The notes under the pieces are model-generated. The model had not been told where the DNA came from, made no database searches, and was given only the letters and a program-made list of their open reading frames with translations. From Candidatus Woesearchaeota archaeon (GTDB lineage Archaea; Nanobdellota; Nanobdellia; Woesearchaeales; WJKL01): a stretch of 45,978 nt of DNA. This document shows positions 22,989 through 45,115 of the stretch, piece by piece (position 1 is the stretch's first letter; the number at the start of each line of letters is the position of its first letter). The position numbers and the translations under genes are program-made. The DNA lies in NCBI GenBank assembly GCA_019322815.1, contig JAHWIB010000002.1:1-45978 (forward strand). The letters run 5' to 3'.

Positions 22989-23015
22989 GTTTAGTATACT
23001 AATTTGTATATTATT

Positions 23016-28618: not shown

Positions 28619-28656
28619 TTTATATATAGGAAGCAATGTTATTCCTTATTGAGGGG
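28619..28656 (+). promoter_or_regulatory. TATA box plus SD upstream of the seven-gene surface operon
   Basis: TTTATATATA at 28619-28628. GAGGGG at 28651-28656, 8 nt before ATG 28665. Confidence 0.5.
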
Positions 28657-28664
28657 TATTAAGT

Positions 28665-30956
28665 ATGCTTAAAAAAAAGGGACAGATTACAATATTTATA
28701 ATTGGAGGGATTATACTTCTATTACTTGTTGCATTATTTCTTTATGTCAGAAGTTTTAGAGTAGAAAAAGTGCCGGCTGCACCAACAGTGGAAGAAGTGC
28801 CAACTCAATTGGATCCTGTAAGAACTTATATGCAGGATTGTTTAAGAGAAACAACTGTCAATGGCTTTAATCTTTTAGGAGCAAGAGCTGGTTATGTAAA
28901 TCCAGAGGAATATGGAATTACATCAAATCCAAATGATCCTACTAGTTCAAATGCTGTTTCTTTTTTTCCAGATGATCCTAATTCACCTCCTGTTGCTTAC
29001 TGGCAGTATTTTAAAAGCAGGAACACATGCCTTGAAAATTGTGCATGCGGAAGCAAACAGCCTCCATTATGCAAGCCTGACAGAAAAGACTGCTTTTCCA
29101 GAGGAGAAAATTCTATAGAAGCACAGCTTGAAAATTATATAGCAGATAATATTGGATTTTGTATTAAGAATTTTGCAGATTTAGCTGAGCAGGGCTTTCA
29201 AATTGAGGAAACTGGAGAGATAGAGCCAGAAGTAACAATAACAAAATCAGCTGTTAGAGTCTATCTAAGATATCCTTTGCAGACAGAAAAAGAAGATACA
29301 AAAGAAACAATTCCTGATTTTTATACAGAGCTTCAGTTTAATTTTATGAAGATTTATGAATTTGCCTCTCAGATAGCAAAAGCTAAACAGCTTTATCATT
29401 TCTTTGAAAGATGGACGATGACTATTATTGAAGGAGTAGGAGGTTTAAATTCAGCAATCCCAAAAACTTATTCTGTTGATTTTAGTCCAGGAACAACAGA
29501 GAGGTGGAGTAAATCTAAGATTAAAGAGCAGATTACAAATAATATCCTCCCAGGATATACTTCTGTTCTTAGAGTCTATAATACCCAGAATTTTAGACCG
29601 ATGACATTTCAAAACGAAATTGCAACAGGAATATACAGATACAGAGACCTTCCGATTGGAAGCACGCAGGATTTTAGTTTTTCTGATTTAAAGGTAAATT
29701 TCCATTATTTTCCTCACTGGCCTATTTATTTTGAGATGGATGGAAGAGGAGTAGAAGGAGATCTTATCACAGCAGAGCAAGGGAGCGCATTTGAAACATT
29801 CTTTTCATGGCTTGGCTTAAAAAGATACCAGTATTATTATGATATCTCTTATCCAGTTATTGTTGAAATAACAGATAATACACAGAAAGCAAAAAATATT
29901 TTCGGCCCAAACGGATATAAATTTCAGTTTGCCTTAGAGGCAAATATAAGAGATAATGAAGAATTGAACTGTTCAGGCCCTGGCCTTGTTTTGACTACTA
30001 AACCATTATCTTCAAACCTATGCAAACAGATCCATTTCAAAAGCGGAGACACTATAATTGAAACCCGCGACGATCAAGGCAATCCAGTGCCTGATGTTTA
30101 TATAATATATCAATGCGGAAAACAAACAGGATGCAGCATAGGTTATACAGAGATTGAGACAAACAGTTCTTCTCCTTATTTTGGCAGAGCAATTTTATCT
30201 ACAAAATTGCCCTATCCTTGTGTAGGAGGATATTTAACAGCAAAAAAACATCATTATTTTATGGACCCTCTGCAGTATAATACAGCTCCTGTAAGAAATG
30301 ACAGCATTGTGCTTGAACTAATGAAAGTAAGAACAGTAAATGCAGCTGTAGCTAAACTAAGAGTAATAAAATCAATGGATGACTGGCAGGCAGCTCCTGG
30401 ATTTAGTAATTTACTTCCAAATGAACAGGCAGTGATCACATTAGAAAGAATAAGACCAAATTTTGCTGCTGAAGATTTTACAAAAGTTGTTTCTGTTGAA
30501 GGAAACACACCTTCAAGAGTTGACTTAATACCAGGAGACTATAAAATCAGCGGATTATTAGTATATAATTTGCCTGCTTTAAATAGAAATGAGATTGTAT
30601 TTAAAGATGAATATGAATGTGCAGGCCTGGAGATGGGAGATATATGCCTTGGAGATACAGTAACCCTTCATATAGACCCATTTAATGATTCTTTTATGGA
30701 AGGAGGGATTGAACTTGAAAATATTAATATTCCTGCTTCTTATTTAGATAATTATGATACTCTTTATTTTAAGGTTGTTTCAATTCCAGACAGCAGCAGT
30801 TTTAACTTATTGTCATTCAGCGATATAGAACTGATGGGCCAGTACAGCACTTGGTCTGGTAGTCTTGCATCTGAATTACAGCCAGATCCAACTGTATTTA
30901 CTTTTGATTATGCTGCAACAGGAGGAGAAAACCCAATGTGGGAATTAACAGAATGA
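28665..30956 (+). CDS. P1: large extracellular protein with a class III (type IV pilin-like) signal/anchor N-terminus; unknown ectodomain
   Basis: MLKKKGQITIFIIGGIILLLLVALFLYV is a basic stretch, then G-Q, then a hydrophobic helix. The 763-aa Cys-containing ectodomain is a paralog of P5. Confidence 0.8.
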   Translation: MLKKKGQITIFIIGGIILLLLVALFLYVRSFRVEKVPAAPTVEEVPTQLDPVRTYMQDCLRETTVNGFNLLGARAGYVNPEEYGITSNPNDPTSSNAVSFFPDDPNSPPVAYWQYFKSRNTCLENCACGSKQPPLCKPDRKDCFSRGENSIEAQLENYIADNIGFCIKNFADLAEQGFQIEETGEIEPEVTITKSAVRVYLRYPLQTEKEDTKETIPDFYTELQFNFMKIYEFASQIAKAKQLYHFFERWTMTIIEGVGGLNSAIPKTYSVDFSPGTTERWSKSKIKEQITNNILPGYTSVLRVYNTQNFRPMTFQNEIATGIYRYRDLPIGSTQDFSFSDLKVNFHYFPHWPIYFEMDGRGVEGDLITAEQGSAFETFFSWLGLKRYQYYYDISYPVIVEITDNTQKAKNIFGPNGYKFQFALEANIRDNEELNCSGPGLVLTTKPLSSNLCKQIHFKSGDTIIETRDDQGNPVPDVYIIYQCGKQTGCSIGYTEIETNSSSPYFGRAILSTKLPYPCVGGYLTAKKHHYFMDPLQYNTAPVRNDSIVLELMKVRTVNAAVAKLRVIKSMDDWQAAPGFSNLLPNEQAVITLERIRPNFAAEDFTKVVSVEGNTPSRVDLIPGDYKISGLLVYNLPALNRNEIVFKDEYECAGLEMGDICLGDTVTLHIDPFNDSFMEGGIELENINIPASYLDNYDTLYFKVVSIPDSSSFNLLSFSDIELMGQYSTWSGSLASELQPDPTVFTFDYAATGGENPMWELTE

Positions 30957-33900
30957 AATTGAAAAAAATATCAGCAATATTTGTGATGGTTTTGATACTC
31001 TGCATACCTGTCTCTTTTGCAGTAAATGTAAGCATAACAAGCAGCGCAGGCGATGATGATGGTATTGAAGGATTATTTGACGGCTATTCAGATCAATGGA
31101 ACATTGAAGTAAGAGCAGAGCTTGGCGGCACTGAAGTCAGACCGGAATATGTAACAGCCCAGTTTGCCAGAAGCACGCTCCCATTTGACCAGTGCACTGA
31201 AATAGCAAGTCCTTTTTATTCATGCAGCCTGATATTTCCTAAAGATCCAGCATCTTTTCCAGAGAATGAATTAGTTCTTCCAATTATCTTGAAACATCCA
31301 GTTACAGGAGCAATAGCAGAAGCAGTTCCTCCAGCCAGAATTGGTATAGACGCACATCCGCCTATAGTAACAATCCACAGCGTATCGCAGCAAGGTTATG
31401 ATACTGTTATGGATCTAGAGATTAGAGACGGCGGCAGCAGAGTATGTTCTGTTGATTTAATTGAGTTCTATGACGGAAATTTTAGAGTGCTGCAGCATAA
31501 TGTAGATGTAACAGACTGCAGTTCATGGCGCAATCAAACATTTATAATTCCTCTTACAGATATAGGAACAACCTTAAAATCAATAAGAGTAGTTGCTCAT
31601 GATTTGGTCGGTCATTCAGGAGATGATATCAGTGATACATTTACTCTTGATCATACGTCTCCTGTAATTGATGCAGACAGTTTTAGATTTACTGCACTAG
31701 GTCAAGACCAATATGCACCAACCACCCCAATACAGACATCAATAGCAATAGATGTAACAGAAGAGCAGACAACACCAGGCATTGCAGAGCCATTGATTGT
31801 TACAGCAGATTTTTCATCATTAGGGCTTTCATCAGCAGAAATCGCCAGTTGTGTTCTAGCTGATTCTATCACAGGAAAATATACATGCACATGGAGCCAA
31901 AAAACAATTACAATACCCTCAAGCTTTACAGTGACTATAACAGCAGAAGATAATGGTGGAATGGATTTTACTAAAGTTATATCAAAAGGTTTTACAGTTG
32001 ACAGCACAGCACCAGATGCAGTTTATTTAGGAGGAAATGAAAGTGCATATGTTGTTACAGGCAAGCCAAATACTTTAAGAGCAACATTTAGAGAAGCACA
32101 AAGCGGAGTTACTGCAGAAAATGTCTTTTTAGATATCAGGGGAATAAATCCTAGCGGCTCATTTAATTTAGAAGCAAGTGAATGTGTTCAAGAAGGAGAA
32201 TTCTGGCATTGTTTTTGGTATAATGTAATAGCAACACAAGCAGGGACAATAACTCTTGTCCAGGTAAAAGATAATGCAAATAATTATGCTATTAATCTGC
32301 CTAGCGCTTCATTGAGCGTTGATACAGACTCTCCTGTTATAGAAAGCATTGAAATTCTTTCATTAAGCGATGTCGGGCGTGTTCCTTATCACCAAGAAGG
32401 AGATTATCTAGAAATAACAGCTGTTGTCAATGATATCAGCGGAATTAAAGCAGCAGCTGATTTCAGGCATGTTATCTCAAATATCGGCAAAGTAGAAGCT
32501 GACTGCCAGGAAACATCTGATGAACAATGGACTTGTGTATGGTCTGGCATAGGTCCCTTGATATCAGTAGCTTCAAGGCAGAGAAGAAATATAGATTTTA
32601 TATTTACTGATTTAGTTGGGAATTCTGTATCAGAAACAGAACCTATTGATATAATTGATATAGGTCTTCCAGAAACAGAACCAGACTATTGGTCAAGCGA
32701 AGCCAGCCCGTCACTGCCAAATATAGACAGGCGGCTAGTGTCTAGAATATTTCCTTATGTATTTGCTCCAGTACATTTAAATCCAGTAGTTTCAGGTTCA
32801 GATCCTTCAAATAAATGGCCTTTACTGGTTACTGATATTCAATGCCCGTCTGATTTTGTAACAACAGCTGAAATATTTAATTATAACAATCCTTTGCCTT
32901 CAATAGGATCTACATTTCCTTATTCATTCTATGCAAAATTAAATCTTGCACAAGCAGCTCCTGAATCTGATGAATTAATTATTCCTTGTACATTTAAGGT
33001 AATGTCTTATATCTATGGAAGAGCTTTGCCAAATCCAGAAATAGAAAATGTAAATGTCACTGTAAATTATTATCAAAATCCATTAGGAGAGGTTGGAGAT
33101 GAAGTCCAAGGAGAGATAGATGAAATTAAAGACAGCTGGCTTGTAGAGGCAGAATGGCTTGATATTGTTGAAGATATCTTGATATTTTCAGAAGCAATCT
33201 GCAAAGCGATGAAGATATTGAATGATATAAATACAGTGTGGACAGCAGGTGTAGATGTTATTAATAACTGTTGCTATACTGTCTATGCTTCAGCTGCTTG
33301 CTGTCCGTTAAAAGCTAGCCAAGGAGCAGCAACCTCAGCTTCAAAAAATGCTTTAGATAGTGTATATAAAGGTGCAGGCGGAAAAGGAATGAATAAATTT
33401 TGCAGAGTAATAAACTGCCAGCTATGGAATATAAAAGATGGAGATGCAGCTAAAAGCGCTTGGGACAGCTGGGTTGACTGGGCAGCAGAAACATCTGGCA
33501 GCAACAGAGGGTATTTTGGAAATGTCAAGCCAGAAGACAGCCTTATATTATCAATCGTATTCCTTTGCCTAAAAGGAGTTATTTATAATCTGCAGAAAGC
33601 AAGGCAGATTGACTGCAGATATGCTTATTGCTTGGAACAGACTTCTTCAGGAGTTCCAGTAAGCTTGTGTGTTCAGCAAAGAGCATTTGCATTATGCAAG
33701 TATGTCTTTAACCAGATATTTAATTTAATACCTTTTGCAGCTGTTATTTCAGATATAGCAGAAGCAATTGGAAGGGCACTGGCAAATCCATGGGTAATGG
33801 GAGAGATAGCATTGAAAGCAACATGCAGATATGCTATCTGTGATATTCCAGGAGTTGCAGGATGCAAATTTTGTTCAGTAGTTGAATATGCCAGCTGGCT

Positions 33901-34030
33901 TTTAGAAACACTATGTGATTTAGGAATAAGTCTTGGAGAAGGCGAGTGCAAGCCATTCTGGGAGACAGTTGATCCAATTCCTGAAAATTATTGCCATAAG
34001 ATAGGAATAGACCCTTATGATGATGAATAA
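30953..34030 (+). CDS. P2: secreted giant protein with an Ig-like domain array and a Cys-rich helical core; paralog of P6
   Basis: ATG 30953 overlaps the P1 stop (ATGA). GTG 30938 is an alternative start. Signal MKLKKISAIFVMVLILCIPVSFA. Repeated D-x-x-x-P-x-I domain starts (DAHPPIV, DHTSPVI, DSTAPDA, DTDSPVI). The C-terminal ~330 aa carry many Cys. Confidence 0.8.
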   Translation: MKLKKISAIFVMVLILCIPVSFAVNVSITSSAGDDDGIEGLFDGYSDQWNIEVRAELGGTEVRPEYVTAQFARSTLPFDQCTEIASPFYSCSLIFPKDPASFPENELVLPIILKHPVTGAIAEAVPPARIGIDAHPPIVTIHSVSQQGYDTVMDLEIRDGGSRVCSVDLIEFYDGNFRVLQHNVDVTDCSSWRNQTFIIPLTDIGTTLKSIRVVAHDLVGHSGDDISDTFTLDHTSPVIDADSFRFTALGQDQYAPTTPIQTSIAIDVTEEQTTPGIAEPLIVTADFSSLGLSSAEIASCVLADSITGKYTCTWSQKTITIPSSFTVTITAEDNGGMDFTKVISKGFTVDSTAPDAVYLGGNESAYVVTGKPNTLRATFREAQSGVTAENVFLDIRGINPSGSFNLEASECVQEGEFWHCFWYNVIATQAGTITLVQVKDNANNYAINLPSASLSVDTDSPVIESIEILSLSDVGRVPYHQEGDYLEITAVVNDISGIKAAADFRHVISNIGKVEADCQETSDEQWTCVWSGIGPLISVASRQRRNIDFIFTDLVGNSVSETEPIDIIDIGLPETEPDYWSSEASPSLPNIDRRLVSRIFPYVFAPVHLNPVVSGSDPSNKWPLLVTDIQCPSDFVTTAEIFNYNNPLPSIGSTFPYSFYAKLNLAQAAPESDELIIPCTFKVMSYIYGRALPNPEIENVNVTVNYYQNPLGEVGDEVQGEIDEIKDSWLVEAEWLDIVEDILIFSEAICKAMKILNDINTVWTAGVDVINNCCYTVYASAACCPLKASQGAATSASKNALDSVYKGAGGKGMNKFCRVINCQLWNIKDGDAAKSAWDSWVDWAAETSGSNRGYFGNVKPEDSLILSIVFLCLKGVIYNLQKARQIDCRYAYCLEQTSSGVPVSLCVQQRAFALCKYVFNQIFNLIPFAAVISDIAEAIGRALANPWVMGEIALKATCRYAICDIPGVAGCKFCSVVEYASWLLETLCDLGISLGEGECKPFWETVDPIPENYCHKIGIDPYDDE

Positions 34031-34034
34031 TAAA

Positions 34035-36146
34035 ATGAAACACATAAAAATATTTGCAATAACATTTGTAATGATTTTATTAGTCTTAAATATCTCTTTT
34101 GGTAAAGATACTACATCAAGCACATTTGATACTAGAAATCCTCAAAATACTAGATACTATTATGATGATGAGTTTCATAGTGAAAAACCATCAAGAGGAG
34201 GATATTATGAAATAACTAGAGATAATGACAACAATGAATGGGATGTAGTTCAATACAATACTCAAGGACAAGCGACTAATTCATACAGCTCTACTCAAGA
34301 TTCACCACCCTCTCCAACAAAACCTGGGGAATGGACTCAGACAGGCAGATATTTTGATGCTAGAGATCTAAATGGTGACAAAGATACAACTGATCCTGGA
34401 GAAGCAGCTGGCTTGTATTCTTTTGTAGATCCTGTTAGGGGTTCTGCTGGTGGTTATTTTGACAGGCAGAATAATTATTATGATAGTGGGAGAAATCTTC
34501 AAGGACGAAGCTATGATCCAAAAACAGGCACTTATATTCCAAAAAATAATGATGATATAAGAGTAGATCCTGATGGAAATGTCTTTGTAGATATGAATGG
34601 AGACGGCCAGGTTAATATCAATGATATTGATACAAATAGAGATGGAAAAGTAGACAGCGATGAAAGAGCCCGTGCAACTATTTCATCAAATTATAATCCA
34701 GATACAGGAACATTTACCCATGATAATGATCCTAATATAATTTTTAGTGATGATGGAGAAATAAATGTTTATGGAGAAGAATTTGAAGATACTGTTCTTT
34801 ATCAAGGTGGTTCTTTTAGTTTTGAAGATGTAGATGGAATTGATAGGCATATGGTTCTTGCAGATGGTACAGTTGTTACAGATCCTGCAACAGGTCTGAT
34901 GGCTGATGTATCACCAGATACTTTTGGAGGTTATTATATAGATACTACTCATTTTGGAGGCTACGATTTAGGCGGAACCTTGCCTAGAGATGACACAACA
35001 ACTATCCATTATGTAGCTCAGTCAGATGATAATAATGATGGATATCCTGACAGTTATTTAGGAGTTGTAGACAGAGCTGGCTCTGATATTGTTTTTAATC
35101 CAGATAATCCTTCACAGACCTTTACAATAGAATCAGATGTTGTTGTAGTTGATCCTGATGACCCAACTAATCCTCATATTGTTGTTCAAGGTACAGACGG
35201 CACATTATATGTGATAGATGGTAATGATGATCTTAATGATCTTTTAGAAGGAAGAGGACGCGTACTTGATCCAGAATCAGATGAATATGAAGAATATTTT
35301 GGTGGAGGCCCGATGGGAACATTTCAAGTTTACAGATTTGGAACACAGTTAGATGATTTAGCAGAAGTTGCAGAAGGTTATCCAGGATTTAGCATGTTTT
35401 ATGATGAAGATGAATATAATGACTGGACAGGTCTTTTGGATGATGAATTTGTAAGAACTCTTTTTGGAGGGATGGATTCATGGGCAGATGCTTTCTGCGA
35501 AGAGCGAACATCAGATGTAGGAGGATCAAATGTAGCTACAGGAGCTGAGCCAGGCAGTGCAGCAGCATATGTGTCTGCAGAAGAATATCAGATACCTGAT
35601 CCAACTGATCCAAGCAATACTCAATATCTATATATGATAGAATTTTATGTTTATGCAGGAGAATCACCAGCAGGCTATCCAAATGTTGGATGCACTGATC
35701 TTCATTTTCAGATTCTAAGACAAGGAGTATCACTTTTTGACAACAATGTGACAGGAGCTGCTTATACATGGGAATTAGAAGAAGGAGATGCAATAACCTA
35801 TACTGCAGATGCTATGTGGTTTGGTACAGGCACTGCAACTCATGTAGGTGAAAATATCTGCATTAAATTTACAACAATGGTTCCAAATGGCTGTATCCCT
35901 GGACTTAGCGAAGGAGATGATCTTTGTGATGCTATTACAATAGCAGCAGAAGAAACATATGATTTTGATTGCGAAGGCTGGTATTGCAGTGAATTTATAG
36001 GATTTTTAACAGGAGTTCCTGGAAGAGATGGATGGTCTTTTGAACTAGATGATGAAGACACAGACGATGCAGAAGCAGGCTCACCAACTCCTTCAGGTGA
36101 TACAACAGATCCAGATTCAGGACAGCCAGTACTTAATCTTGGCTAA
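34035..36146 (+). CDS. P3: secreted Asp/Gly/Tyr-rich protein with tandem Ca-binding-loop motifs
   Basis: Likely start is ATG 34035 (MKHIKIFAITFVMILLVLNISFG). The ORF track starts at 34017. DMNGDGQVNIND and DTNRDGKVDSDE are DxNxDGxxxxxD/E loops. Confidence 0.75.
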   Translation: MKHIKIFAITFVMILLVLNISFGKDTTSSTFDTRNPQNTRYYYDDEFHSEKPSRGGYYEITRDNDNNEWDVVQYNTQGQATNSYSSTQDSPPSPTKPGEWTQTGRYFDARDLNGDKDTTDPGEAAGLYSFVDPVRGSAGGYFDRQNNYYDSGRNLQGRSYDPKTGTYIPKNNDDIRVDPDGNVFVDMNGDGQVNINDIDTNRDGKVDSDERARATISSNYNPDTGTFTHDNDPNIIFSDDGEINVYGEEFEDTVLYQGGSFSFEDVDGIDRHMVLADGTVVTDPATGLMADVSPDTFGGYYIDTTHFGGYDLGGTLPRDDTTTIHYVAQSDDNNDGYPDSYLGVVDRAGSDIVFNPDNPSQTFTIESDVVVVDPDDPTNPHIVVQGTDGTLYVIDGNDDLNDLLEGRGRVLDPESDEYEEYFGGGPMGTFQVYRFGTQLDDLAEVAEGYPGFSMFYDEDEYNDWTGLLDDEFVRTLFGGMDSWADAFCEERTSDVGGSNVATGAEPGSAAAYVSAEEYQIPDPTDPSNTQYLYMIEFYVYAGESPAGYPNVGCTDLHFQILRQGVSLFDNNVTGAAYTWELEEGDAITYTADAMWFGTGTATHVGENICIKFTTMVPNGCIPGLSEGDDLCDAITIAAEETYDFDCEGWYCSEFIGFLTGVPGRDGWSFELDDEDTDDAEAGSPTPSGDTTDPDSGQPVLNLG

Positions 36147-36149
36147 AAA

Positions 36150-36965: not shown

Positions 36966-38839
36966 AAAAAAAATCTCAGGTAACAATATTCATAATAATT
37001 TGAATAATATTGCTTCTTTCAGTAGCTTTGTTTCTCTATTTAAGGCAGGAAATAACAATCTTCAGGCCAAGAGAGGTTTATCCTCCAGAAGTCATGCCAA
37101 TTGTAGATTTTATGGATACTTGTTTAAATGATCTGGGAACACAAGCAGCAAATATTGTAGGATCAACAGGAGGCTATATTGAAATTCCTCCAGAGATAGC
37201 AAATGACCCTTCTGCCCATATCTCATTGGCTCCTCCTGGAATACCAACAGCAAAGGTCCCGTTATGGTATTACCAGGGCCAAAACAGGATTCCAACTTTA
37301 GAATTTATAAAAGATCAGATGGAGGGTTATATTGAAGAAAGATATAGGGAATGTCTTAATAACTTGACTGAATTCAGGCAAAGATTCAACATAACAGAAT
37401 TAGGGCAGATTATGATCACAGTAAATCTGGAAGAAGAAAACACTCCAATAGAGCTTAGTTTTCCTTTAGAAATCAGCGATGTTTTAGGAAAAAGACTGGC
37501 TAAGATAGAGACAAGAACAGTCACTCTTCCATTTAGGATCAAAAAAGCGTATACATTAGCAGCTGCTATCATGGAAGCAGAGCAGAGAGACATGAAACTA
37601 GAAGATATAACAATGGATTTAATAGCCTTAGATCCTGATATACCTTATGCAGATATGGAATTTACTTGTTCAAAAAAAAGATGGTCAATTAATGATATAA
37701 TCAATAAACTAAGAGTGATGTTAAGGACAAACCTGGATGAATTAAGAATTGGTAATACAGATTTTGTAGAGGTCCCTAAAAGCAAGCCGTATATTTTTCA
37801 TCATTATATCTGGCTTGTAACAGATGTAACTTATCCTGATATGACAGCAAGCTTTACTTATGATGAAAAATGGCCTTTATATCTTTATGCAAGGCCAAAC
37901 AAAGGATCTTATTTAGAAAGCGGCATGCAGCAGGGGCTTGACGTAATGTCATGGCTTTGCATCCAGAACTGGAAATTCACATATGATATAAGATATCCTG
38001 TTTTGACAACAGTTAAAGACAAAAAGTCAGATTATAGTTTTAATTTTGCATTTAGAGTATTGATAGACCATAACCAGCCTACAAGACACACATTCCCGGT
38101 ATCAGTATTTGAATTTGAAACAAACCCAACAATATCAGAATACTGTGATAGCAGAGTGCATGATATCACTGTTTTGACTTATGATAATGTAAGTGTTAAT
38201 GGAGTTGAAGATTATATTGAAATAGATGGTGTTGATGTTAGTTTCACATGCTTGAAATATAGGTGTGAATTAGGAAAAACAGAATGGAGTGAAAGCGGAG
38301 CAGTTGCTGAATTAACAGCAGCATTCCCTTATTGTGTCTTGGGAATTTTAAGAGGAAAAAAAGAAGGATATAAAGACGCGCATGTCTTTATGTCCAGCGA
38401 AAGGCCAAAAACAGTAGAGCTTTATCTTACTCCTATAAAAGAAGTCGAAACTTATACAGTTGTAAAACACCCTGATTTAAACACCCTTGCCGAACAGCCT
38501 ATAGATGAAGATGAGATTGTTTCAATCTCAATAGAAAGGCCAGGCCACTCAACCTTCGGCTTATATCCAAGACAAACAGATATTCCTCTGACATTTCTAG
38601 CAGAAGCTGATTTTAATTATACAGTGCAGATGTACCTAACAGATTTAGATGGAGATTTTAAAGGAGGTTATAAAAGCGTTTGGACTCCTGACTGGTCAGA
38701 GCTTAGGGACGCAAAGCAGATTAAATTCCATGTATATTATTCAATGGATGCAGAGGGAGATAAAGTGCTTGACTCTTTAGTTAGCTTAGAAAATCTTTCA
38801 GTAGAAATTCCAGAGCCAGAAATAATAACAACAGAATAA
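36962..38839 (+). CDS. P5: paralog of P1, interrupted by an in-frame TGA (37001-37003) inside the signal anchor; possible pseudogene, readthrough or sequence error
   Basis: ATG 36962 overlaps the P4 stop (ATGA). It translates to MKKKSQVTIFIII*IILLLSVALFLYLRQ, colinear with the P1 N-terminus. The ORF track only calls TTG 37010 onward. Confidence 0.6.
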
Positions 38840-38840
38840 C

Positions 38841-41800
38841 ATGCTATATAAAAAATTAAATAAAATAATTGCATTGATTTTAATAGAATTAATCTTAATC
38901 CTGCCTGTTTATACAGCAGCGCTTACTATATCTAATATACAGGTAGATGCATCTGATAAGTCTGCATTTGTGACATGGCAGACAGATGAAGAAAGCGCTA
39001 CAGAAATTAGTTACGGCAAAGACACAGCCAATTTGAATAACACTATATCTGATGTAAATCTTGTTAAAGATCATTCTGTTCTGCTGAGGAATCTGGAAAA
39101 ATCAACTGCATATTTTTTTGAATTGACTGCGCAGACACCTACAGAGACATTAGTTGATGACAAATCAGGAGAATACTACAAGTTTTTGACGCTTGCAGAA
39201 GATACAGTAGAGCCCTTTATAGATGTAGAACTTCCAGAAGCAGTTGACAGCAATGAATTAGATATAGTCGGAAAAACAGAGATTGAGTCAAAGATAGAGC
39301 TTTTTGTAAACGGCCAGGCAAGAAGAGTGGTTGATTTTTCAAAAAATACTCTTGGAGAATTGAAATTTTATGGGGTTGACTTGCTGCCGAATGAGCAGAA
39401 TATTATATTCTTAAAAGTAACAGACCTTGCAGGAAATACAGCTCAAAAGCAGTTTACTGTTTATTCAGATTTGGTCGCTCCAGTAATAACCTTTACACCT
39501 GAACTGCCTGATGTGATTGATGCAAGTTCAATTAATATCATCGGAACATTGTCAGAAATATCTTTATTTAACGTGACATTAAATGATGCGTCTATATATT
39601 CTGCTGAAACAGCTTCTTTTTCTTTTAATACCCAACTAACAGAAGGAGAAAATAGATTTGTTATAAAAGCAAAAGATAAATCAGGCCGTGAAACAATTAT
39701 AGAAAAAACAGTTATTTCAGATACACTGCCTCCAACACTGATAAATGTGACGCCTGTTTCAGGGAGCTTTTATTATGAAGGAAGAGGGATAATAGATCTT
39801 CAATTTGCAACAGAGCCAAATGCAGAAGTAAGGGTTTACAGGGACGGCAGAGGCATTTTGGCAAAATATGATGAAACAAGAACAGCAGATGCAAATGGCA
39901 ATGTAAGATTTAATGATGTTGAGTTAGAAGGAGTTCATTTCGGGCCTTTTTCAGTATCAGCAGAATGGCCTCCTATGAGAGAGGTGCAGGCAACAACTCA
40001 AAGAGTAGTTACATCTCAAACAACACAGCAGGGCACAGAAGCTCAGCAAAGAACAGTCAAATTAATTATTGCTGTAAGAGATATAGCAGATCATGTAACC
40101 ATACATACAATGAGCTATACAATTGGAACATGCTGGAGCGGAGAACTAGATTTTCATATTTCTAACATGATAGAATATAATACACCTACATTATTAAGCC
40201 CAGAAAGATTAGAAGAAGGCTCTGAATTGATATCATTTGTATTAAATGTCAGTTATGAAGGAGGAGCTAAAGATCCATCAGACTGGCAAATAACTGATGT
40301 AAGGTTTGACAAAGCATGCAGAGGAGGAAGATTAGGCGAGCCAGAATTCTTTTTAGAAGAAGACATAAGATATGACGTGTCTTGTTCAATACTGCCAAGT
40401 TCTCCAACAACTAAAGACAGAAATACTGCAGGAACATTATGGTATGTCAGATATGATCTAGGCAGTACAGCTGAATTTACTAATTTTACAGAGGTTGATT
40501 GGGAAGAAATCGGAAGGCGCGAGTTAATATTTCCTTTAAAACTTACAGTAAGGTATAAAGAAAGAGAAGTTAATCCCACAACAGGCAGGAAAGAATGGAG
40601 CGGAACAAAGACCCAGACAAAATGCATGCAGGTTGCTTATTTTGTTGATATTCCAATAGACCCAAGAGATGTTCTTCCTGATGCAATATTAGAGGATCTT
40701 CCAGATGCTATGAATAATACAATCAATTCAATAAATGATATACTCAATACAACAGAAGAAATCACAGAATATATTGCAATAGGCTGCTTAAGTAGTCTTT
40801 TAATAAAGTTTGTAACACAGATTATAAGAAAAATAACATGCAGATTAAACACAAGATCAGCAAAGATTGCTAAATCTGTTGGAAAAGAAGCAACATGCCC
40901 TACAACAGATGATGGAAGGATGTCTTTGCCTTTAAATAATGCTTCTAGAAAAGGTGTTACAGTCCCTACTAAATTATACAGGCCTTCTGGAAAAGCAGAA
41001 AACCCCGAATATCCTTATCTTGAGACAGCCTGTTCAGGATGCGCAAATGCATGGAAAGCAGAAGCAGGTCTTTATCAGCTTGAGAGATGGCTGTGTGACA
41101 GGATTTTATGCCATAAAGCTCCTGCAAAATGGACAGCTTTTGAAAAAGGAGTAAAAGATGAGCAGATTAAATTAGCTGAAAAAAAATCAAGAACATGCGG
41201 CGATGAAGACAAAGCAGGCGTTCTATCTCTTTCAAAAATTGAAAATTGCGCAAGGACATACGGCCCGTCAGGCAGAAACGTGCTGTCAATTGGATTTGAA
41301 ACTAGAAATCTGTGTTATTTATATGAAAATACCTTATATGTAGAAGCTACAACACCACTTGCAGCAGATGCAGACGGTTTTTATACATTGACTAAAGCCA
41401 GTAAAGGAGGAGAAGGGCCTGGGGAGCTTAAAGTAATAAAAGAAGGATCTAATTATGCGACAGCAAGAAACAAGAACTGTGATGACATCTGCAAAGAGGT
41501 TAATAGAAAAGCTGTAGGAAGCTGTGAAGCAAAAAAAACCTGCGTTGAAGTGAAAGGAAAACTAGATGCAGGAACTTTGATGGGCTACAGCAATGACTGC
41601 TGGTACAGGCAGGATGCAATAAAAGACAAAGAACAATGCTGCTGCAGAACAGAAAAAGGAGTTGTACCAGAGCCTCCTGTTACAACAGTCAACTGCAAAG
41701 TAGGCCAAACTCCAGGAAAAGACTGCCAGGATTGGGAATACAGAGAGCAGGAATTGAATAGAAAAGACAAGAAAAAATATGGAACTTATTATCCTGAAAA

Positions 41801-44318
41801 CAGATATTTTGAAGGCCGTGACTTGCCAGCTTGTTTTGGACAGAATTATTTCTTTGAAACTCCTGCAAAAGGCAAGCCAGGAAAAGTTCCGACACTCGAT
41901 CCATTCAGGCAGCACTTAAGCACATTTCAGTGCCTTTGCTTGACAGGAATAAGGCAGAGGCTGATCATGTTAAAGAATATTTTAACAGGAATGAGGAACT
42001 GTTTAATCCAGATAAGAGAAACAGGAGATGCAGATGTAGGTGTCTGCAAAGAAATGTTCACTCAATATGTATGTGATGTTGTTTATCAGGTTTATTTATG
42101 GTTTAAAAGAGGATGTATTCCAAACCCATTTGGAGATGATATAACACTTGGAGGAAGATCAACAGGAGTAGGCGGAACAAATGTCAGTGCTCCAAGCGTA
42201 TTTTCAATAGTTGGAGGAGAGATGTTTGGAACAGTCAGAGATATGGGAAGCAGCATTGGAGCAGAGTATGGAAGCTCGCAATTTTCAAATTACTTAAGCA
42301 TGGGAGAAAGAGAGCTCTCAAGAAAGATTTGTTTAGCAGCATTTGGATTTGATGTAGGCTGGGATTTTGATACTCTTTTAGACATGACTTATAATACCCA
42401 ATTTGCATCATCTGTATTAGCCTTAGGATTAAGAAGAGATTTTTTAACTTATAATCCTGACAATGAACTTGCAACCTATGCATACAGGGGCTCGTGGACA
42501 ATATATCCTGGATGCGAGATTATAAGCTATAAAGTTGATTTAACTTGCGTCAACCAGCAGGAAAAAAGCAAGTATCGAGGGATTGATTGCACTACAGTTG
42601 CTGATCCGGAAAACCCAACAGGATGCGACTGCCTAATGCAGTCATCGCCGTATGCAGCCAGGTCAAAATTATTCTATACAGGAGGCCCATTATCAGCTAC
42701 TGCAATGGAAGATAAAGATCATCATACTAATGTTGAAAGCCAATTTAGATATGATCATCTAAGGATACAGCTTTTCCTGCATCCAGAAGCTGATAAGAGT
42801 AAATGCCTGCCAACAGGTTATGATGAAGGAATATTTTATTTCCCAATAACAGACAGGACAGCAAGAGATCTTCTTGACTGCACCCTTGACCTTGAAAGAG
42901 GACAGTTCAGATGCAGCCGCGGCTTGGAATGGGAGCAAAAAGGAGAAGCTCGTTTTGATTATTTCACAAAAGATGAATGCAAGGCCGGCGAATCATGCAA
43001 TTTATTATGCAATAATCCTTATGAAAGTTCTGCATGGATTGACTGTAAAAATGTAACTTACACAGCAGGCAAGAATATCCAGATAAAACCAAAGATAAGA
43101 GGAAAAGGAAGCCAATGCTTGAAAGCAACATTGACAGCAGAAAACGGAGAAAAGGTCTACGATGAAATGCATTCTATTGGCCAAAGCGGGTTTGAGCAGG
43201 AATATACAGAATCAAATCCAATATCTCTGACTACTGTAAGGCCGGATCAATTTGCAGGAGGAGGAGTTTCTATAGATTCAACAACAAAAGAAAACTGTAC
43301 AATAGGAGATATTTCAAATGTATCAAGCAGGATGCCTGGCCAAACATTAAATCTAGAATGGGAAAAAACAGTAGAAGCAGGCATCACTAAGTTTAAGCCC
43401 AAAACCATTCCAACTGGCTTGAAGATTTATGACCAGTCTGGAACTGAAGTTGGATTTATAGGCTCTAAAGCAGCAAGTGAAATAGAAAAATTAAGTTTTG
43501 GATTTGCAGGATTTAGGTTTAAATTTACTAAGATCGAGCCAGGCAGATGTATAATAAAGACAAAAGCAGGAACAGGCAGTGAAAATCAGATATGGCAGCT
43601 TAGTCTTGAATTATATCATCCAGATGCTCAAGGCAGCTGCGCAATGACAGCAGGCAGAGTATTAGACAGGATATTTATTGTAGGACAAGAAACATCTATT
43701 GACAGGTCATTGGATGTTAGGAAGAGCTACAGCCCTCCTGCTGCTGGCACAGTTGGAACAGGCAAAGCTGCTGATGTGATAGGACTTAGCGGTTCAGAAC
43801 TAGAAAACTTTTTGAAGGAAAAATTAGAGAAAAATGAGATGTTATCTTCCTGCAACAATAATAAATTAGATGAAGGAGAGTCATGCGACATTATAGATGG
43901 AAGAATAGTGTTAGCAGGAAGTCCAGTCCTTTCTCTTGATGAAGACTTTTTAAAAATAAATAATACAATTCAGATAAGTACAGGATCTTGCTTACATTTA
44001 GCAACAGATGATTGTTATGAAAATAATGCTAATTTTGATATTTCTAGTATAAAATGTTTTGGCTGTTATGCCTGGAGCCCTTTGTTAACATGCATAGATG
44101 ATGATAGTCTTGGAGATGACGGACAATCAAAATGGTATCCTGCCAGATTATATTATAGTTATAGTGAAAAGAAATTTGATAGAATATACTGGTATAAAAA
44201 AGAATCATATGTTGGAAGTGATTCAAGTTGCCCAAATGAGTGCATTAATAGAGATGATAATAATCTAAAAGATATAACTAGAAAGCCATTTGCAGCTAAT
44301 AATAATTTTTGCAGTTAA
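38841..44318 (+). CDS. P6: 1825-aa secreted giant protein with FN3/Ig-like N-terminal array and Cys-rich core; paralog of P2 (and possibly P3)
   Basis: Starts 2 nt after the P5 stop. Signal anchor IIALILIELILILPVYTAA. FN3-like ISNIQVDASDKSAFVTWQTDEESATEISYG. Ig-like starts DLVAPVITF and DTLPPTLINV. The Cys-rich core aligns with P2. Confidence 0.85.
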   Translation: MLYKKLNKIIALILIELILILPVYTAALTISNIQVDASDKSAFVTWQTDEESATEISYGKDTANLNNTISDVNLVKDHSVLLRNLEKSTAYFFELTAQTPTETLVDDKSGEYYKFLTLAEDTVEPFIDVELPEAVDSNELDIVGKTEIESKIELFVNGQARRVVDFSKNTLGELKFYGVDLLPNEQNIIFLKVTDLAGNTAQKQFTVYSDLVAPVITFTPELPDVIDASSINIIGTLSEISLFNVTLNDASIYSAETASFSFNTQLTEGENRFVIKAKDKSGRETIIEKTVISDTLPPTLINVTPVSGSFYYEGRGIIDLQFATEPNAEVRVYRDGRGILAKYDETRTADANGNVRFNDVELEGVHFGPFSVSAEWPPMREVQATTQRVVTSQTTQQGTEAQQRTVKLIIAVRDIADHVTIHTMSYTIGTCWSGELDFHISNMIEYNTPTLLSPERLEEGSELISFVLNVSYEGGAKDPSDWQITDVRFDKACRGGRLGEPEFFLEEDIRYDVSCSILPSSPTTKDRNTAGTLWYVRYDLGSTAEFTNFTEVDWEEIGRRELIFPLKLTVRYKEREVNPTTGRKEWSGTKTQTKCMQVAYFVDIPIDPRDVLPDAILEDLPDAMNNTINSINDILNTTEEITEYIAIGCLSSLLIKFVTQIIRKITCRLNTRSAKIAKSVGKEATCPTTDDGRMSLPLNNASRKGVTVPTKLYRPSGKAENPEYPYLETACSGCANAWKAEAGLYQLERWLCDRILCHKAPAKWTAFEKGVKDEQIKLAEKKSRTCGDEDKAGVLSLSKIENCARTYGPSGRNVLSIGFETRNLCYLYENTLYVEATTPLAADADGFYTLTKASKGGEGPGELKVIKEGSNYATARNKNCDDICKEVNRKAVGSCEAKKTCVEVKGKLDAGTLMGYSNDCWYRQDAIKDKEQCCCRTEKGVVPEPPVTTVNCKVGQTPGKDCQDWEYREQELNRKDKKKYGTYYPENRYFEGRDLPACFGQNYFFETPAKGKPGKVPTLDPFRQHLSTFQCLCLTGIRQRLIMLKNILTGMRNCLIQIRETGDADVGVCKEMFTQYVCDVVYQVYLWFKRGCIPNPFGDDITLGGRSTGVGGTNVSAPSVFSIVGGEMFGTVRDMGSSIGAEYGSSQFSNYLSMGERELSRKICLAAFGFDVGWDFDTLLDMTYNTQFASSVLALGLRRDFLTYNPDNELATYAYRGSWTIYPGCEIISYKVDLTCVNQQEKSKYRGIDCTTVADPENPTGCDCLMQSSPYAARSKLFYTGGPLSATAMEDKDHHTNVESQFRYDHLRIQLFLHPEADKSKCLPTGYDEGIFYFPITDRTARDLLDCTLDLERGQFRCSRGLEWEQKGEARFDYFTKDECKAGESCNLLCNNPYESSAWIDCKNVTYTAGKNIQIKPKIRGKGSQCLKATLTAENGEKVYDEMHSIGQSGFEQEYTESNPISLTTVRPDQFAGGGVSIDSTTKENCTIGDISNVSSRMPGQTLNLEWEKTVEAGITKFKPKTIPTGLKIYDQSGTEVGFIGSKAASEIEKLSFGFAGFRFKFTKIEPGRCIIKTKAGTGSENQIWQLSLELYHPDAQGSCAMTAGRVLDRIFIVGQETSIDRSLDVRKSYSPPAAGTVGTGKAADVIGLSGSELENFLKEKLEKNEMLSSCNNNKLDEGESCDIIDGRIVLAGSPVLSLDEDFLKINNTIQISTGSCLHLATDDCYENNANFDISSIKCFGCYAWSPLLTCIDDDSLGDDGQSKWYPARLYYSYSEKKFDRIYWYKKESYVGSDSSCPNECINRDDNNLKDITRKPFAANNNFCS

Positions 44319-44335
44319 AATAAATTTATGATAAG

Positions 44336-45115
44336 ATGAAACGAATAATATCCTCTTTGAAGCAATCCTTTAAAATAAAGAATAAAAAACTGTTATTCTT
44401 ATTGCTTTTTCTGATCCAAATAGGATTTATAGTTTTGATCTCTTATTTATTTGTTCATTATTATACAATTATTATGAACTTATTGAATTCAATCATACAA
44501 GGTATTGAGCAGTTAACTCCAGAATCACTTGCTGATATGCAGCAAAGCTTAAGGATGTATGCAAATCTAGAAAAAGTAACTAGCACATTCTCTTTGGCAA
44601 TATTAGTTATGTATCTTGTTTATGCAGTATTAAACGGGCTTAATTGGGATTTTACAAATATGCTTGTAAATAAAAAATTAAAATTTCCAAAATATGAAGC
44701 TCAGTTTGCAGTATTGGCATTTATTTTTCTTCTGCCTGCAATGATTATATTCAGAGCTATTCTTAACTCTTTAATTCAGCTGGATTTCTTATATCCTATG
44801 AAAATTATAGCAGGATTGATAATATTAGCAACATGGTATTTTATGATGATTGCATTTGCATTGATTAATAAATACAAATTAAATAAATTAAAGCAGCACC
44901 TAAAACAGACATTCATCATAGGCTGTAAAAAAGCAAAAATCCTGATTCCAACATATCTGATAATTATAGTTGTATTATCAGCATTCTTTACCTTGATTTA
45001 TCTTGTACAGGACATAGAATCTCTTTCTGTCTTGATTTTATCAATAGTCTTGTTCATGCTGTCAATTGTCTGGAGCAGAATTTATTTCCTGACAACGATG
45101 AAGAATTTATCTTAA
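44336..45115 (+). CDS. P7: polytopic membrane protein; paralog of P4
   Basis: About 6 hydrophobic helices. NWDFTNMLVNKKLKFPKY and VWSRIYFLTTMKNL align with IWNNLLEKKFDLKKYLKF and AWMRIYILNVIKK in P4. Confidence 0.75.
   Translation: MKRIISSLKQSFKIKNKKLLFLLLFLIQIGFIVLISYLFVHYYTIIMNLLNSIIQGIEQLTPESLADMQQSLRMYANLEKVTSTFSLAILVMYLVYAVLNGLNWDFTNMLVNKKLKFPKYEAQFAVLAFIFLLPAMIIFRAILNSLIQLDFLYPMKIIAGLIILATWYFMMIAFALINKYKLNKLKQHLKQTFIIGCKKAKILIPTYLIIIVVLSAFFTLIYLVQDIESLSVLILSIVLFMLSIVWSRIYFLTTMKNLS

What the first reader, a model, noticed from the sequence alone, without database searches (positions are those of the whole stretch)
28619..45115. Seven-gene, translationally coupled surface operon built from a tandemly duplicated three-gene module
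Seen in the sequence:
- All seven genes are on the + strand, with gaps of 17 nt or less or ATGA overlaps (30953/30956 and 36962/36965).
- There is a single TATA+SD upstream, and a convergent gene closes the cluster downstream.
- P1/P5 paralogy: KKKGQITIFIIGGIILLLLVALFLYV vs KKKSQVTIFIII*IILLLSVALFLYL; DPVRTYMQDCL vs MPIVDFMDTCL; YYYDISYPVIVEITD vs FTYDIRYPVLTTVKD.
- P2/P6 paralogy: LCLKGVIYNLQKARQIDC...VSLCVQQRAFALCKYVFNQIF vs LCLTGIRQRLIMLKNILTGMRNC...VGVCKEMFTQYVCDVVYQVYL. In both, this core follows arrays of Ig-like units that start D-x-x-x-P-x-I.
- P4/P7 paralogy: IWNNLLEKKFDLKKYLKF vs NWDFTNMLVNKKLKFPKY; AWMRIYILNVIKK vs VWSRIYFLTTMKNL.

I recognise no characterised family for the P1/P5 ectodomain, the P2/P6 Cys-rich core, or P4/P7.

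Inference: this is a dedicated, duplicated cell-surface or cell-cell contact apparatus. The anchor protein would present a giant disulfide-rich effector or adhesin, and the membrane protein would act as assembly or anchoring partner.
Basis: partly seen in the sequence, partly recalled or inferred. Interest (0 to 1): 0.85.

Follow-up and report, generated by a model that had tools for sequence, protein, structure and literature searches.

The report
Duplicated surface-protein operon of Woesearchaeota
Seven tightly packed genes in a tiny symbiotic archaeon (Woesearchaeota) encode two ancient copies of a cell-surface protein set that matches no described family, is conserved in hundreds of related species, and probably forms an attachment or envelope structure.

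Summary
Seven + strand genes (28665-45115) have gaps of 17 nt or less, or overlaps. P1/P5 are clear paralogs (BLASTP E 3e-27). P4/P7 (hhalign 98.6%, E 1e-15) and a ~70-aa Cys-rich core of P2/P6 (HMM 1e-17; hhalign E 4e-5) are paralogs only at profile level.

Three corrections:
- The module has four genes, not three. P3 has a hypervariable N-terminal region and a C-terminal domain conserved in the same slot of at least 33 loci. P6 may be a P2-like plus P3-like fusion (weak, P about 7e-4).
- The duplication is ancient. There is no DNA similarity between the copies, and the P5 type forms its own clade.
- The in-frame TGA in P5 is a single base private to this assembly; four others read GGA.

The order A-B-C-D-A'-B'-D' recurs across Woesearchaeota/Nanoarchaeota genomes: at least 383 P1 relatives among species representatives and 513 P2 clusters at E<=1e-30. 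Nothing significant turned up in Pfam, NCBIfam, PHROGs, PADLOC, or PDB sequences and folds. No family has conserved catalytic-type residues.

P1/P5 carry a conserved K-[KR]-[GA]-Q-[ILV]-T-[ILV]-F N-terminus like EppA-type prepilin signals, but no pilus machinery lies nearby.

Best reading: a non-enzymatic, membrane-anchored surface complex that displays variable domains. That role is inferred, not shown.

The parts
28619..28626 (+). TATA-box-like TTTATATA about 38 nt upstream of the P1 start. GAGGGG (28651-28656) lies 8 nt before the ATG.
   Evidence: Read directly from the sequence. Promoter function is not tested. No other intergenic space in the cluster exceeds 17 nt.
28665..30956 (+). P1 = component A (763 aa). 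It has an N-terminal K-K-K-G-Q-I-T-I-F-I-I-G-G motif plus a hydrophobic helix (residues 4-30), a Pro-rich linker, an alpha/beta ectodomain (about 47-430), and beta-sandwich domains (about 460-735).
   Evidence: ORF. The AF2 model has pLDDT 83.4. The family N-terminal consensus is KRGQITIFIIIG. Foldseek matches only generic beta-sandwiches.
30953..34030 (+). P2 = component B (1025 aa from the ATG). It has a Sec signal peptide, Ig-like repeats, a beta-sandwich, and an all-alpha Cys-rich C-terminal region. P2 contains 32 Cys.
   Evidence: The family has 513 clusters at E<=1e-30 in 1.84 billion representatives. No Pfam or PDB match.
33506..33712 (+). Conserved Cys-rich core of P2 (aa 857-925 of the 1030-aa ORF; consensus LC.PGI..NL.K.RQI.C.Y..CL...G.P...C.....C.YV). 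This is the segment shared with P6.
   Evidence: It is the most conserved 50-aa window of P2.
34017..36146 (+). P3 = component C (709 aa). It has a signal peptide, then an acidic, hypervariable N-terminal region (aa 1-430), then a conserved domain.
   Evidence: Only the closest relative (L001) shares the N-terminal region. The C-terminal domain is shared widely.
35307..36143 (+). Conserved C-terminal domain of P3 (aa 431-709; C494 invariant, C615, C637 and Y539 in at least 90% of sequences). It is found in the gene between B and D in at least 33 loci.
   Evidence: Local jackhmmer E 1e-17 to 1e-83. Alignment A12. No PDB sequence match.
36150..36965 (+). P4 = component D (271 aa). It is a membrane protein with about six TM segments. 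It has no Cys and no conserved acidic residues, and carries a C-terminal W-x-R-x-Y motif.
   Evidence: No Pfam match in any of 47 family members.
36962..38839 (+). P5 = component A' (625 aa when intact), paralog of P1. In this window it is interrupted by TGA at 37001-37003, at the codon of the near-invariant Gly of the N-terminal motif.
   Evidence: BLASTP E 3e-27 against P1. Four other assemblies have GGA at that codon. The A' type forms a monophyletic clade.
38841..44318 (+). P6 = component B' (1825 aa). It has a signal peptide, FnIII/Ig-like domains (aa about 30-335), a middle region, the Cys-rich core, and a long C-terminal extension. P6 contains 58 Cys.
41874..42086 (+). Core of P6 (aa 1012-1082), homologous to the P2 core.
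42156..42800 (+). Post-core region of P6 (aa about 1106-1320). It aligns collinearly with the P3 C-terminal domain, which hints at a B'+C' fusion.
   Evidence: hhalign P 6.7e-4 over 185 columns. Controls: reversed profile P 0.71; other P6 regions P 0.35 and 0.78. Weak evidence.
44336..45115 (+). P7 = component D' (259 aa), a membrane protein with about six TM segments and a paralog of P4.
   Evidence: hhalign probability 98.6%, E 1.1e-15. A D-type gene also follows B' in L067, L083 and L088.

Best explanation
The cluster encodes two ancient tandem copies of a four-component, non-enzymatic cell-surface module specific to Woesearchaeota-type (Nanoarchaeota) archaea.

The components:
- A (P1, P5): a ~600-800-aa ectoprotein. 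It is tethered by a conserved prepilin-like N-terminal hydrophobic helix and a flexible linker.
- B (P2, P6): a secreted giant with an Ig-like stalk and a disulfide-rich helical core.
- C (P3; possibly fused into P6): a secreted protein. Its conserved C-terminal domain would dock it to the complex and its N-terminal region is hypervariable.
- D (P4, P7): a six-TM membrane protein with no catalytic signature.

Proposed mechanism (inferred): the genes are co-translated from one transcript. D and the helix of A form the membrane base. The conserved parts (the A ectodomain, the B core, the C-terminal domain of C) hold the complex together. The fast-evolving parts (the B Ig-like array, the N-terminal region of C) face outward. 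There they would mediate attachment to, or recognition of, a partner cell or surface.

Shown: the gene layout, the paralogy, the conserved synteny, the predicted export and membrane features, and the lack of any known family. Inferred: that the proteins form a complex, its orientation, and the adhesive role.
For: - Tight co-directional packing with overlaps.
- A/A', B/B' and D/D' are paralogs.
- In 82 related loci, A-B adjacency occurs in 58, A-B-C-D in 23, and D-A'-B' in 13. Most of the remaining loci are cut by contig ends.
- The A' type is monophyletic and its branching mirrors the A clade, so the two modules have co-diverged since an old duplication.
- Distribution is wide but lineage-restricted. 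There are at least 383 P1 relatives in GTDB species representatives, essentially all from Woesearchaeota/Nanoarchaeota. The B family has 998 representatives at E<=1e-10.
- Signal peptides, TM segments, Ig-like hits and high Cys content are present.
- The invariant and >=90%-conserved columns reported for these alignments are mostly C, W, Y, G, P, F, N, L. A single Asp (D393) is near-invariant in P1; none is a His, Glu or Ser.
- Conserved cores contrast with variable parts. The P3 N-terminal region is shared only with the nearest relative, whereas its C-terminal domain is shared by at least 33 loci. In P1 the N-terminal 100 aa are the most conserved stretch.
- The AF2 model of P1 shows an anchor helix, a low-confidence Pro-rich linker, then folded ectodomains.
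Against: - There is no direct evidence of expression, of complex formation or of binding.
- AF2 failed on the B core (pLDDT 45), so its fold and any membrane activity are unknown.
- No structural or sequence analog supports an adhesin role beyond generic beta-sandwiches.
- High Cys content is unusual for surface proteins of presumed anaerobes. It could instead indicate metal binding or another chemistry.
- Conservation in so many species could mean a housekeeping envelope role rather than partner recognition.
Confidence: 0.5

Rival explanations
1. It is the main cell-envelope lattice, an S-layer-like two-tier wall. The A proteins would act as membrane stalks and the B proteins as the outer canopy, as SlaB and SlaA do in Sulfolobales. 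C and D would be accessory subunits.
For: - An anchor gene and a large secreted beta-rich protein are co-transcribed.
- The cluster is conserved in many species next to housekeeping genes.
- The beta-sandwich part of the P1 model matches SlaB 8qox_B (Foldseek E 1.9e-4, probability 0.97).
- All families look structural.
Against: - The SlaB match has a TM-score of only 0.11-0.18 and is no better than matches to unrelated Gram-positive pilins.
- A is anchored at its N-terminus, whereas SlaB is anchored at its C-terminus.
- S-layers are built from one or two proteins (PMC5744192 abstract), not two sets of four.
- In Woesearchaeota metatranscriptomes, separately annotated S-layer genes are among the top expressed genes (PMC11606122).
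- A hypervariable C and a variable gene order fit poorly with a lattice.
Confidence: 0.2
2. A and A' are true class III (type IV prepilin-like) substrates. A prepilin peptidase would cut between G6 and Q7. A type IV pilus-like machine encoded elsewhere would assemble them into a short fibre or pseudopilus. That fibre would carry B and C as tip or side adhesins, like TadG-type large pseudopilins or the Sulfolobus bindosome.
For: - The N-terminal consensus K-[KR]-[GA]-Q-[ILV]-T-[ILV]-F-[IM]-I-x-G is conserved far beyond what a plain anchor needs.
- It matches the KGQI/KGQV/KGQL/RAQI processing sites of EppA-dependent pilins, which have a conserved +1 Gln (PMC4371748, Table 1 and text).
- Five of eight N-termini give recurrent sub-threshold hits to PF13400, the TadE/G-like pseudopilin N-terminus (E 0.0011-0.39).
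- Archaellin genes are transcribed in Woesearchaeota (PMC11606122).
Against: - No PilB/PilC/peptidase A24 gene lies in the 46-kb window, in the 10 kb beyond the cluster's downstream end, or next to the cluster in the other loci with Pfam-annotated neighbours.
- Position +5 is Phe, not Glu.
- The Pfam and NCBIfam scans returned no class III/pilin model above its cut-off.
- In the AF2 model the helix is separated from the globular part by a disordered Pro-rich linker, rather than continuing into a pilin head.
- No small pilin genes with this motif occur in any of the 84 loci.
Confidence: 0.15
3. It is a delivery or attack system. The hydrophobic, Cys-rich helical core of B would insert into a partner membrane, and the variable C proteins would be exchangeable cargo or effectors, as in polymorphic toxin loci.
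For: - The N-terminal regions of C are hypervariable on a constant docking domain.
- Two slot genes in other genomes carry Peptidase_M23 or Peptidase_S8 domains.
- The B core contains hydrophobic helices (P2 867-886, P6 644-663).
Against: - Nearly all C proteins, including P3, have no enzymatic or toxin domain.
- No immunity-like small genes follow C.
- There is no ATPase or secretion machine.
- The hydrophobic segments may simply be buried helices, and the model of this region is unreliable.
Confidence: 0.1

Closest known systems
EppA-processed archaeal type IV pilins and other class III signal-peptide proteins (Methanococcus maripaludis Epd pilins; Sulfolobus bindosome sugar-binding proteins)
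   Same: A short basic N-terminus, then [KR]-[GA] followed by Gln, then a ~20-residue hydrophobic stretch. As in bindosome proteins, a large globular ectodomain hangs on that N-terminus.
   Different: There is no +5 Glu. No pilin or class III Pfam/NCBIfam model is matched. The model shows no pilin head fold. No assembly ATPase, platform or peptidase lies nearby. Cleavage is untested.
SlaA/SlaB two-component S-layer of Sulfolobales
   Same: A membrane-anchored beta-sandwich stalk protein and a very large secreted partner are encoded side by side. There is a weak Foldseek match between the P1 beta-sandwiches and SlaB (8qox_B).
   Different: The anchor is at the opposite end. There is no coiled coil. 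Four components are present in two paralogous sets. There is no sequence similarity. One component is hypervariable.
Bacterial fibrillar adhesins, and TadG-type large pseudopilins of Tad/Flp pili
   Same: Arrays of Ig-like stalk domains with D-x-x-x-P-x-[IV] linkers. A large protein carries a pseudopilin-like N-terminus (sub-threshold PF13400 hits).
   Different: There is no sortase, LPXTG or T1SS signal and no vWA domain. The distal 'adhesive' domain is not identifiable. The organism is an archaeon and the accessory membrane protein has no bacterial counterpart.
DPANN host-attachment structures seen by cryo-ET (attachment organelle of Nanobdellota YN1; intercellular tubes of ARM-1)
   Same: They occur in the same broad group of ultra-small symbiotic archaea. 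They are surface structures whose protein components are explicitly unknown (PMC11420986).
   Different: Those organisms belong to other orders. Nothing links these genes to those structures. I could not test whether these families occur in Nanobdellales.

Membership tests
Archaeal class III signal peptide / type IV prepilin-like proteins (EppA type) | A basic n-region, then [KR]-[GA] directly before the cleavage site, with Gln at +1 | tested here: met
   P1 reads MLKKKG|QITIF and intact P5 reads MKKKS|QVTIF. The family consensus is K[KR][GA]Q[ILV]T[ILV]F. Compare KGQI/KGQV/RAQI in PMC4371748, Table 1.
Archaeal class III signal peptide / type IV prepilin-like proteins (EppA type) | A hydrophobic H-domain of ~20 residues after the cleavage site | tested here: met
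   P1 residues 7-28 (mean Kyte-Doolittle 2.8). The AF2 model has a helix at 4-30.
Archaeal class III signal peptide / type IV prepilin-like proteins (EppA type) | Glu at +5, typical of EppA substrates and bacterial pilins | tested here: not met
   Position +5 is Phe in nearly all members (F11 is at least 90% conserved).
Archaeal class III signal peptide / type IV prepilin-like proteins (EppA type) | A match to curated pilin or class III signal models | tested here: not met
   No pilin or class III model was returned above its cut-off by Pfam or NCBIfam, for the full protein or for the 50-aa N-termini. The only related hit is a sub-threshold one to PF13400 Tad (best 19.7 bits against a cut-off of 22.3).
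Archaeal class III signal peptide / type IV prepilin-like proteins (EppA type) | Cleavage by an A24-family prepilin peptidase, and assembly by a PilB/PilC-type machine | not testable with these tools
   No such genes occur in the window, in the 10 kb beyond its downstream end, or in the loci with Pfam-annotated neighbours. Whole genomes could not be searched.
GXGD-type prepilin peptidase (considered for P4/P7: ~260 aa, ~6 TM) | Two conserved catalytic Asp residues, one in a GXGD motif | tested here: not met
   No conserved acidic residue in 47 members. Besides the start Met, only W260 is near-invariant across all 47, and Y264 in the 18-member P4 subset. No Peptidase_A24 hit.
SlaA/SlaB-type S-layer | An anchor subunit with a C-terminal TM helix and coiled-coil stalk, and homology to SlaA/SlaB | tested here: not met
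   P1 has only an N-terminal TM segment. The AF2 model lists no long C-terminal helix. The Foldseek match to 8qox_B has TM-score 0.11-0.18. PDB profile searches found no sequence match.
Bacterial Ig-like fibrillar adhesins (Big_13 / FnIII stalks) | Pfam-recognisable stalk repeats plus a known adhesive or anchor domain | tested here: inconclusive
   P6 aa 30-293 hits Glucodextran_B at its cut-off (27.2 against 27). Big_13, Pur_ac_phosph_N and fn3 fall below theirs. P2 gives no hit. No adhesive or anchor domain was found.
Phage/virus structural module or anti-phage defence system | Matches to PHROGs or PADLOC families, and a mobile-element context | tested here: not met
   PHROGs gives one weak FnIII-region hit only. 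PADLOC gives none. The flanks are housekeeping genes: MetRS upstream, in the window and in L001, and DUF1385 and GrpE-DnaK-DnaJ downstream.

The most novel reading that the evidence does not exclude
The A-B-C-D module is the genetic basis of a previously unrecognised kind of archaeal surface organelle: the partner-cell attachment or bridging apparatus of Woesearchaeota. In this reading a prepilin-like anchored base (A+D) carries a disulfide-locked helical B core that engages the partner envelope. An exchangeable hypervariable C subunit sets the specificity. All four protein families, and at least the A ectodomain fold, would be new to biology.
Probability: 0.15. Interest if true: 0.9.

Novelty: new variant of a known kind. 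Interest (0 to 1): 0.62.

Why it matters
Woesearchaeota and their relatives are among the most widespread uncultured archaea. They are thought to live attached to other cells, yet the proteins that build DPANN attachment structures are explicitly unknown (PMC11420986). Most of their lineage-specific membrane and extracellular families also have no predicted function (PMC8204110).

This cluster defines four co-inherited families: A, B, C and D. They have a fixed order, an ancient duplication and a hypervariable subunit, and they occur in hundreds of species. That gives a concrete, testable candidate for the surface machinery of these organisms, and gives marker genes for finding it in metagenomes. 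The conserved prepilin-like N-terminus also suggests a testable processing step.

Tried and rejected
- Pairwise BLASTP for P2/P6 and P4/P7 was not significant. Profiles were needed.
- P3 against P6 by BLASTP gave only noise.
- Pfam, NCBIfam, PHROGs and PADLOC on all seven proteins gave nothing above cut-offs apart from one borderline Ig-like (Glucodextran_B) hit in P6. The same held for every member of the D family, the B C-terminal alignment and the slot-gene set.
- PDB sequence-profile searches with the A, D, B-core and C-domain alignments gave nothing.
- Foldseek with the confident P1 model, against PDB and BFVD, returned only generic beta-sandwich hits with TM-score about 0.1.
The model had pLDDT 45 and its Foldseek search was empty.
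- The word-index homolog search badly under-recovers these families: 25, 6 and 3 hits.
- TGA recoding as Gly was rejected. TGA terminates P1 and P4 in the same operon, and other assemblies read GGA at the P5 site.
- A prepilin-peptidase role for P4/P7 was rejected because no Asp is conserved.
- A recent duplication or a diversity-generating retroelement target was not supported. The cluster contains no DNA repeats.
- Literature searches found no description of these families.


Full report
**What is in the sequence.**
Seven ORFs lie on the + strand:
- P1: 28665-30956
- P2: 30953-34030
- P3: 34017-36146
- P4: 36150-36965
- P5: 36962-38839
- P6: 38841-44318
- P7: 44336-45115

The junctions are -4 (ATGA), -14, +3, -4 (ATGA), +1 and +17 nt. 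TTTATATA lies at 28619-28626 and GAGGGG at 28651-28656, both ahead of the P1 ATG. A convergent DUF1385 gene overlaps the end of P7. GC content is about 0.33-0.38. The context is archaeal housekeeping: MetRS directly upstream, plus TYW3, an RNase P p30/PHP protein and a Ser/Thr kinase. Several other large surface proteins are also present. GrpE-DnaK-DnaJ follow downstream.

**Paralogy.**
- P1/P5 are significant pairwise: E 3e-27, 25% identity over 531 aa.
- P2/P6 and P4/P7 are not significant pairwise (E 6.7 and 0.094).
- I therefore fetched 83 related loci and built profiles from their ORFs.
- The P2 profile hits P6 882-1082 (iE 2e-17). The P6 profile hits P2 854-928 (iE 5e-18).
- Profiles of the two subfamilies built separately give hhalign E 4e-5 (probability 70%) over 70 columns for P2/P6.
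- For P4/P7 they give probability 98.6%, E 1.1e-15, over 242 columns.
- So all three pairs are paralogs. For B the recognisable homology is limited to a short core plus generic Ig-like repeats.

**A fourth conserved component.**
The gene between B and D looked non-conserved: sizes range from 160 to 1455 aa, and full-length P3 found only 8 relatives.
- Splitting P3 resolved this. Residues 431-709 detect the slot gene in at least 33 loci (E 1e-17 to 1e-83). Residues 1-430 are shared only with the closest relative, L001.
- In the domain alignment one Cys is invariant, and two further Cys and a Tyr are conserved in at least 90% of sequences.
- The unit is therefore A-B-C-D, where C is a hypervariable head on a constant domain.
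- The P6 region just after its core (aa about 1106-1320) aligns collinearly with this C domain. The P value is 6.7e-4, against 0.71 for a reversed-profile control and 0.35 and 0.78 for other P6 regions.
- This hints that P6 is a B'+C' fusion. It would explain why the second module lacks a separate C gene and why P6 is about 800 aa longer than P2. I treat it as suggestive only.

**Synteny and age.**
- Across 82 other loci, A-B adjacency occurs in 58, A-B-C-D in 23 and D-A'-B' in 13. Most of the rest are truncated by contig ends.
- B' is followed by a D-type gene in L067, L083 and L088.
- A neighbour-joining tree of 90 A-family proteins places all 20 P5-type proteins in one clade. Nearly all with enough upstream sequence sit directly after D. 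In that clade the same loci group together as in the P1 clade.
- A third clade of 754-965-aa A proteins sits in B-D-A'' loci.
- The two modules share no nucleotide repeat.
- The duplication therefore predates the divergence of these lineages. Order can be permuted: L088 is A''-D-B-x-x-A-A'-B'-D'.

**Distribution.**
- The N-terminal pattern K[RK][GA]Q[IVL]T[IVL]F[IM]I found more than 599 sites in one genome per GTDB species. Of these, 383 encode P1 relatives.
- The 80 kept loci are Woesearchaeota/Nanoarchaeota MAGs. Some are titled 'uncultured Methanosarcinales', although they include a 774-kb chromosome and contigs of 0.68-0.97 Mb. I take these to be mislabelled DPANN genomes.
- A P2 profile finds 1289 (E<=1e-3), 998 (E<=1e-10) and 513 (E<=1e-30) representatives among 1.84 billion 50%-identity clusters. 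Most are 1000-1300 aa. The sampled names are all 'hypothetical protein'.

**What the proteins look like.**
- P2, P3 and P6 begin with Sec-type signal peptides. P4 and P7 have about six hydrophobic segments. P2 and P6 are 3.1-3.2% Cys, whereas P4 has none.
- The AF2 model of P1 is confident (pLDDT 83.4). It shows a helix at 4-30, a low-confidence Pro-rich linker, an alpha/beta domain at about 47-430, then beta-sandwiches.
- Foldseek against PDB and BFVD returns only beta-sandwich proteins at TM-score about 0.1: Gram-positive pilins, SlaB and phage fibres. The main ectodomain has no detectable structural relative in those libraries.
- The B C-terminal half could be modelled only from a shallow alignment and the model failed (pLDDT 45). 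Its secondary structure suggests a beta-sandwich followed by an all-alpha region.
- Nothing above cut-offs was found in Pfam, NCBIfam, PHROGs, PADLOC or PDB sequence profiles apart from one borderline Ig-like hit in P6.
- The invariant and >=90%-conserved positions reported for these alignments are mostly C, W, Y, G, P, F, N, L. P1 has one near-invariant Asp; none is a His, Glu or Ser. This points to a structural assembly rather than an enzyme.

**The conserved N-terminus of A.**
- The first ~15 residues (consensus KRGQITIFIIIG) fall in the most conserved stretch of the family.
- The motif reproduces the [KR]-[GA]|Q-[ILV] processing sites of EppA-dependent Methanococcus pilins. EppA requires the +1 Gln (PMC4371748).
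- Five of eight N-termini give sub-threshold hits to the TadE/G-like pseudopilin N-terminal model.
- Several points count against true pilin status. Position +5 is Phe. No pilin or class III model was returned above its cut-off. A disordered linker follows the helix. No pilus ATPase, platform or peptidase occurs in the window, in the 10 kb beyond its downstream end, or in the other annotated loci.
- P4/P7 are not hidden prepilin peptidases, because no Asp is conserved.
- The closest analogy is a bindosome-like, class III-type anchor for a large ectoprotein. Cleavage remains to be tested.

**Interpretation.**
- Best supported (confidence about 0.5): a non-enzymatic, membrane-anchored surface complex, in two anciently diverged versions. 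Its conserved parts hold it together and its variable parts (the B Ig-like array, the head of C) are displayed, most likely for attachment or recognition.
- Rivals: an S-layer-like envelope (0.2), a pilus-machine-assembled fibre (0.15), and a delivery system with exchangeable C cargo (0.1).
- The single Peptidase_M23 and Peptidase_S8 slot genes are the only hint for the delivery system.
- No paper in the searched library describes these families. Reviews state that most DPANN-specific membrane and extracellular families are unannotated (PMC8204110). The proteins of the DPANN attachment organelle are unknown (PMC11420986).

**The stop codon in P5.**
- TGA at 37001-37003 replaces the near-invariant Gly of the N-terminal motif.
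- Four other assemblies of essentially the same genome read GGA and encode a 625-aa protein.
- A JGI contig whose coordinates coincide with the window's (probably its source record) has P5 called as only 581 aa.
- TGA terminates P1 and P4, so recoding is excluded.
- It is a private nonsense allele or a base error.

**Verdict.**
The interpretation as a dedicated surface apparatus is reasonable but untested, and it needs the four-component correction. Novelty lies in four uncharacterised, co-inherited families with a distinctive architecture. The general kind, an anchored archaeal surface complex, is known. Interest is moderately high.

Noticed in passing
window 37001-37003: The in-frame TGA in P5 is a single G>T difference from four other assemblies (L084-L087), which read GGA. 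It falls on the near-invariant Gly of the N-terminal motif. A JGI contig whose coordinates coincide with the window's (L091) calls P5 as only 581 aa.
   Followed up: yes
window 20061-20376 and 22948-23262: Two adjacent large surface-protein genes are 20157-22886 (GLUG/GEVED hits) and 23004-25292 (SdrD_B/CarboxypepD_reg). They share their upstream region (83 nt, 76% identical) and their first ~218 coding nt (87% identical). This looks like a duplicated promoter plus signal-peptide cassette on otherwise different genes.
   Followed up: partly
window 8537-12673 (- strand) and 7938-8540 (- strand): A 1378-aa protein is built from ~201-nt Cys-containing repeats and ~120-nt repeats, with a Vgb_lyase-like beta-propeller hit. 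The next gene gives a sub-threshold hit to the outer-membrane beta-barrel model OMP_b-brl (25.7 bits against a cut-off of 28.7), which is odd for an archaeon.
   Followed up: no
window 1521-7357: Three nucleotidyltransferase-domain (NTP_transf_2/Polbeta) genes sit with small unannotated partners and an HTH_8 protein within 6 kb. This resembles a cluster of minimal nucleotidyltransferase toxin-antitoxin-like pairs. Similar genes are inserted into the B-D slot in a few other genomes.
   Followed up: no
L007, L008, L028 and other loci titled 'uncultured Methanosarcinales': Records labelled Methanosarcinales include a 774-kb chromosome and contigs of 0.68-0.97 Mb that carry this Woesearchaeota-type cluster. 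The taxon label in those records is probably wrong.
   Followed up: partly
L012, L045, L051, L060, L064, L065, L068, L070; L088 719-3157: A third paralogous type of component A (754-965 aa) forms its own clade and sits after D in B-x-D-A'' loci. L088 shows a permuted nine-gene array, A''-D-B-x-x-A-A'-B'-D'. Some genomes carry the module at two separate loci: the JABJCP01 genome (L014, L070) and the CAYUUQ01 genome (L019, L069).
   Followed up: partly
window 34500-34700 (P3 aa ~165-225): The hypervariable acidic part of P3 contains D-x-[ND]-x-D-G runs (for example DMNGDGQVNINDIDTNRDGKVDSDE). These look like dockerin/EF-hand-type calcium-binding loops. Pfam did not report them.
   Followed up: no
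slot genes between B and D in related loci (alignment A11): One slot gene carries a Peptidase_M23 domain (E 4e-17) and another a subtilase domain (E 1e-46). I did not work out which loci they come from, or whether they also keep the conserved C-terminal domain.
   Followed up: no
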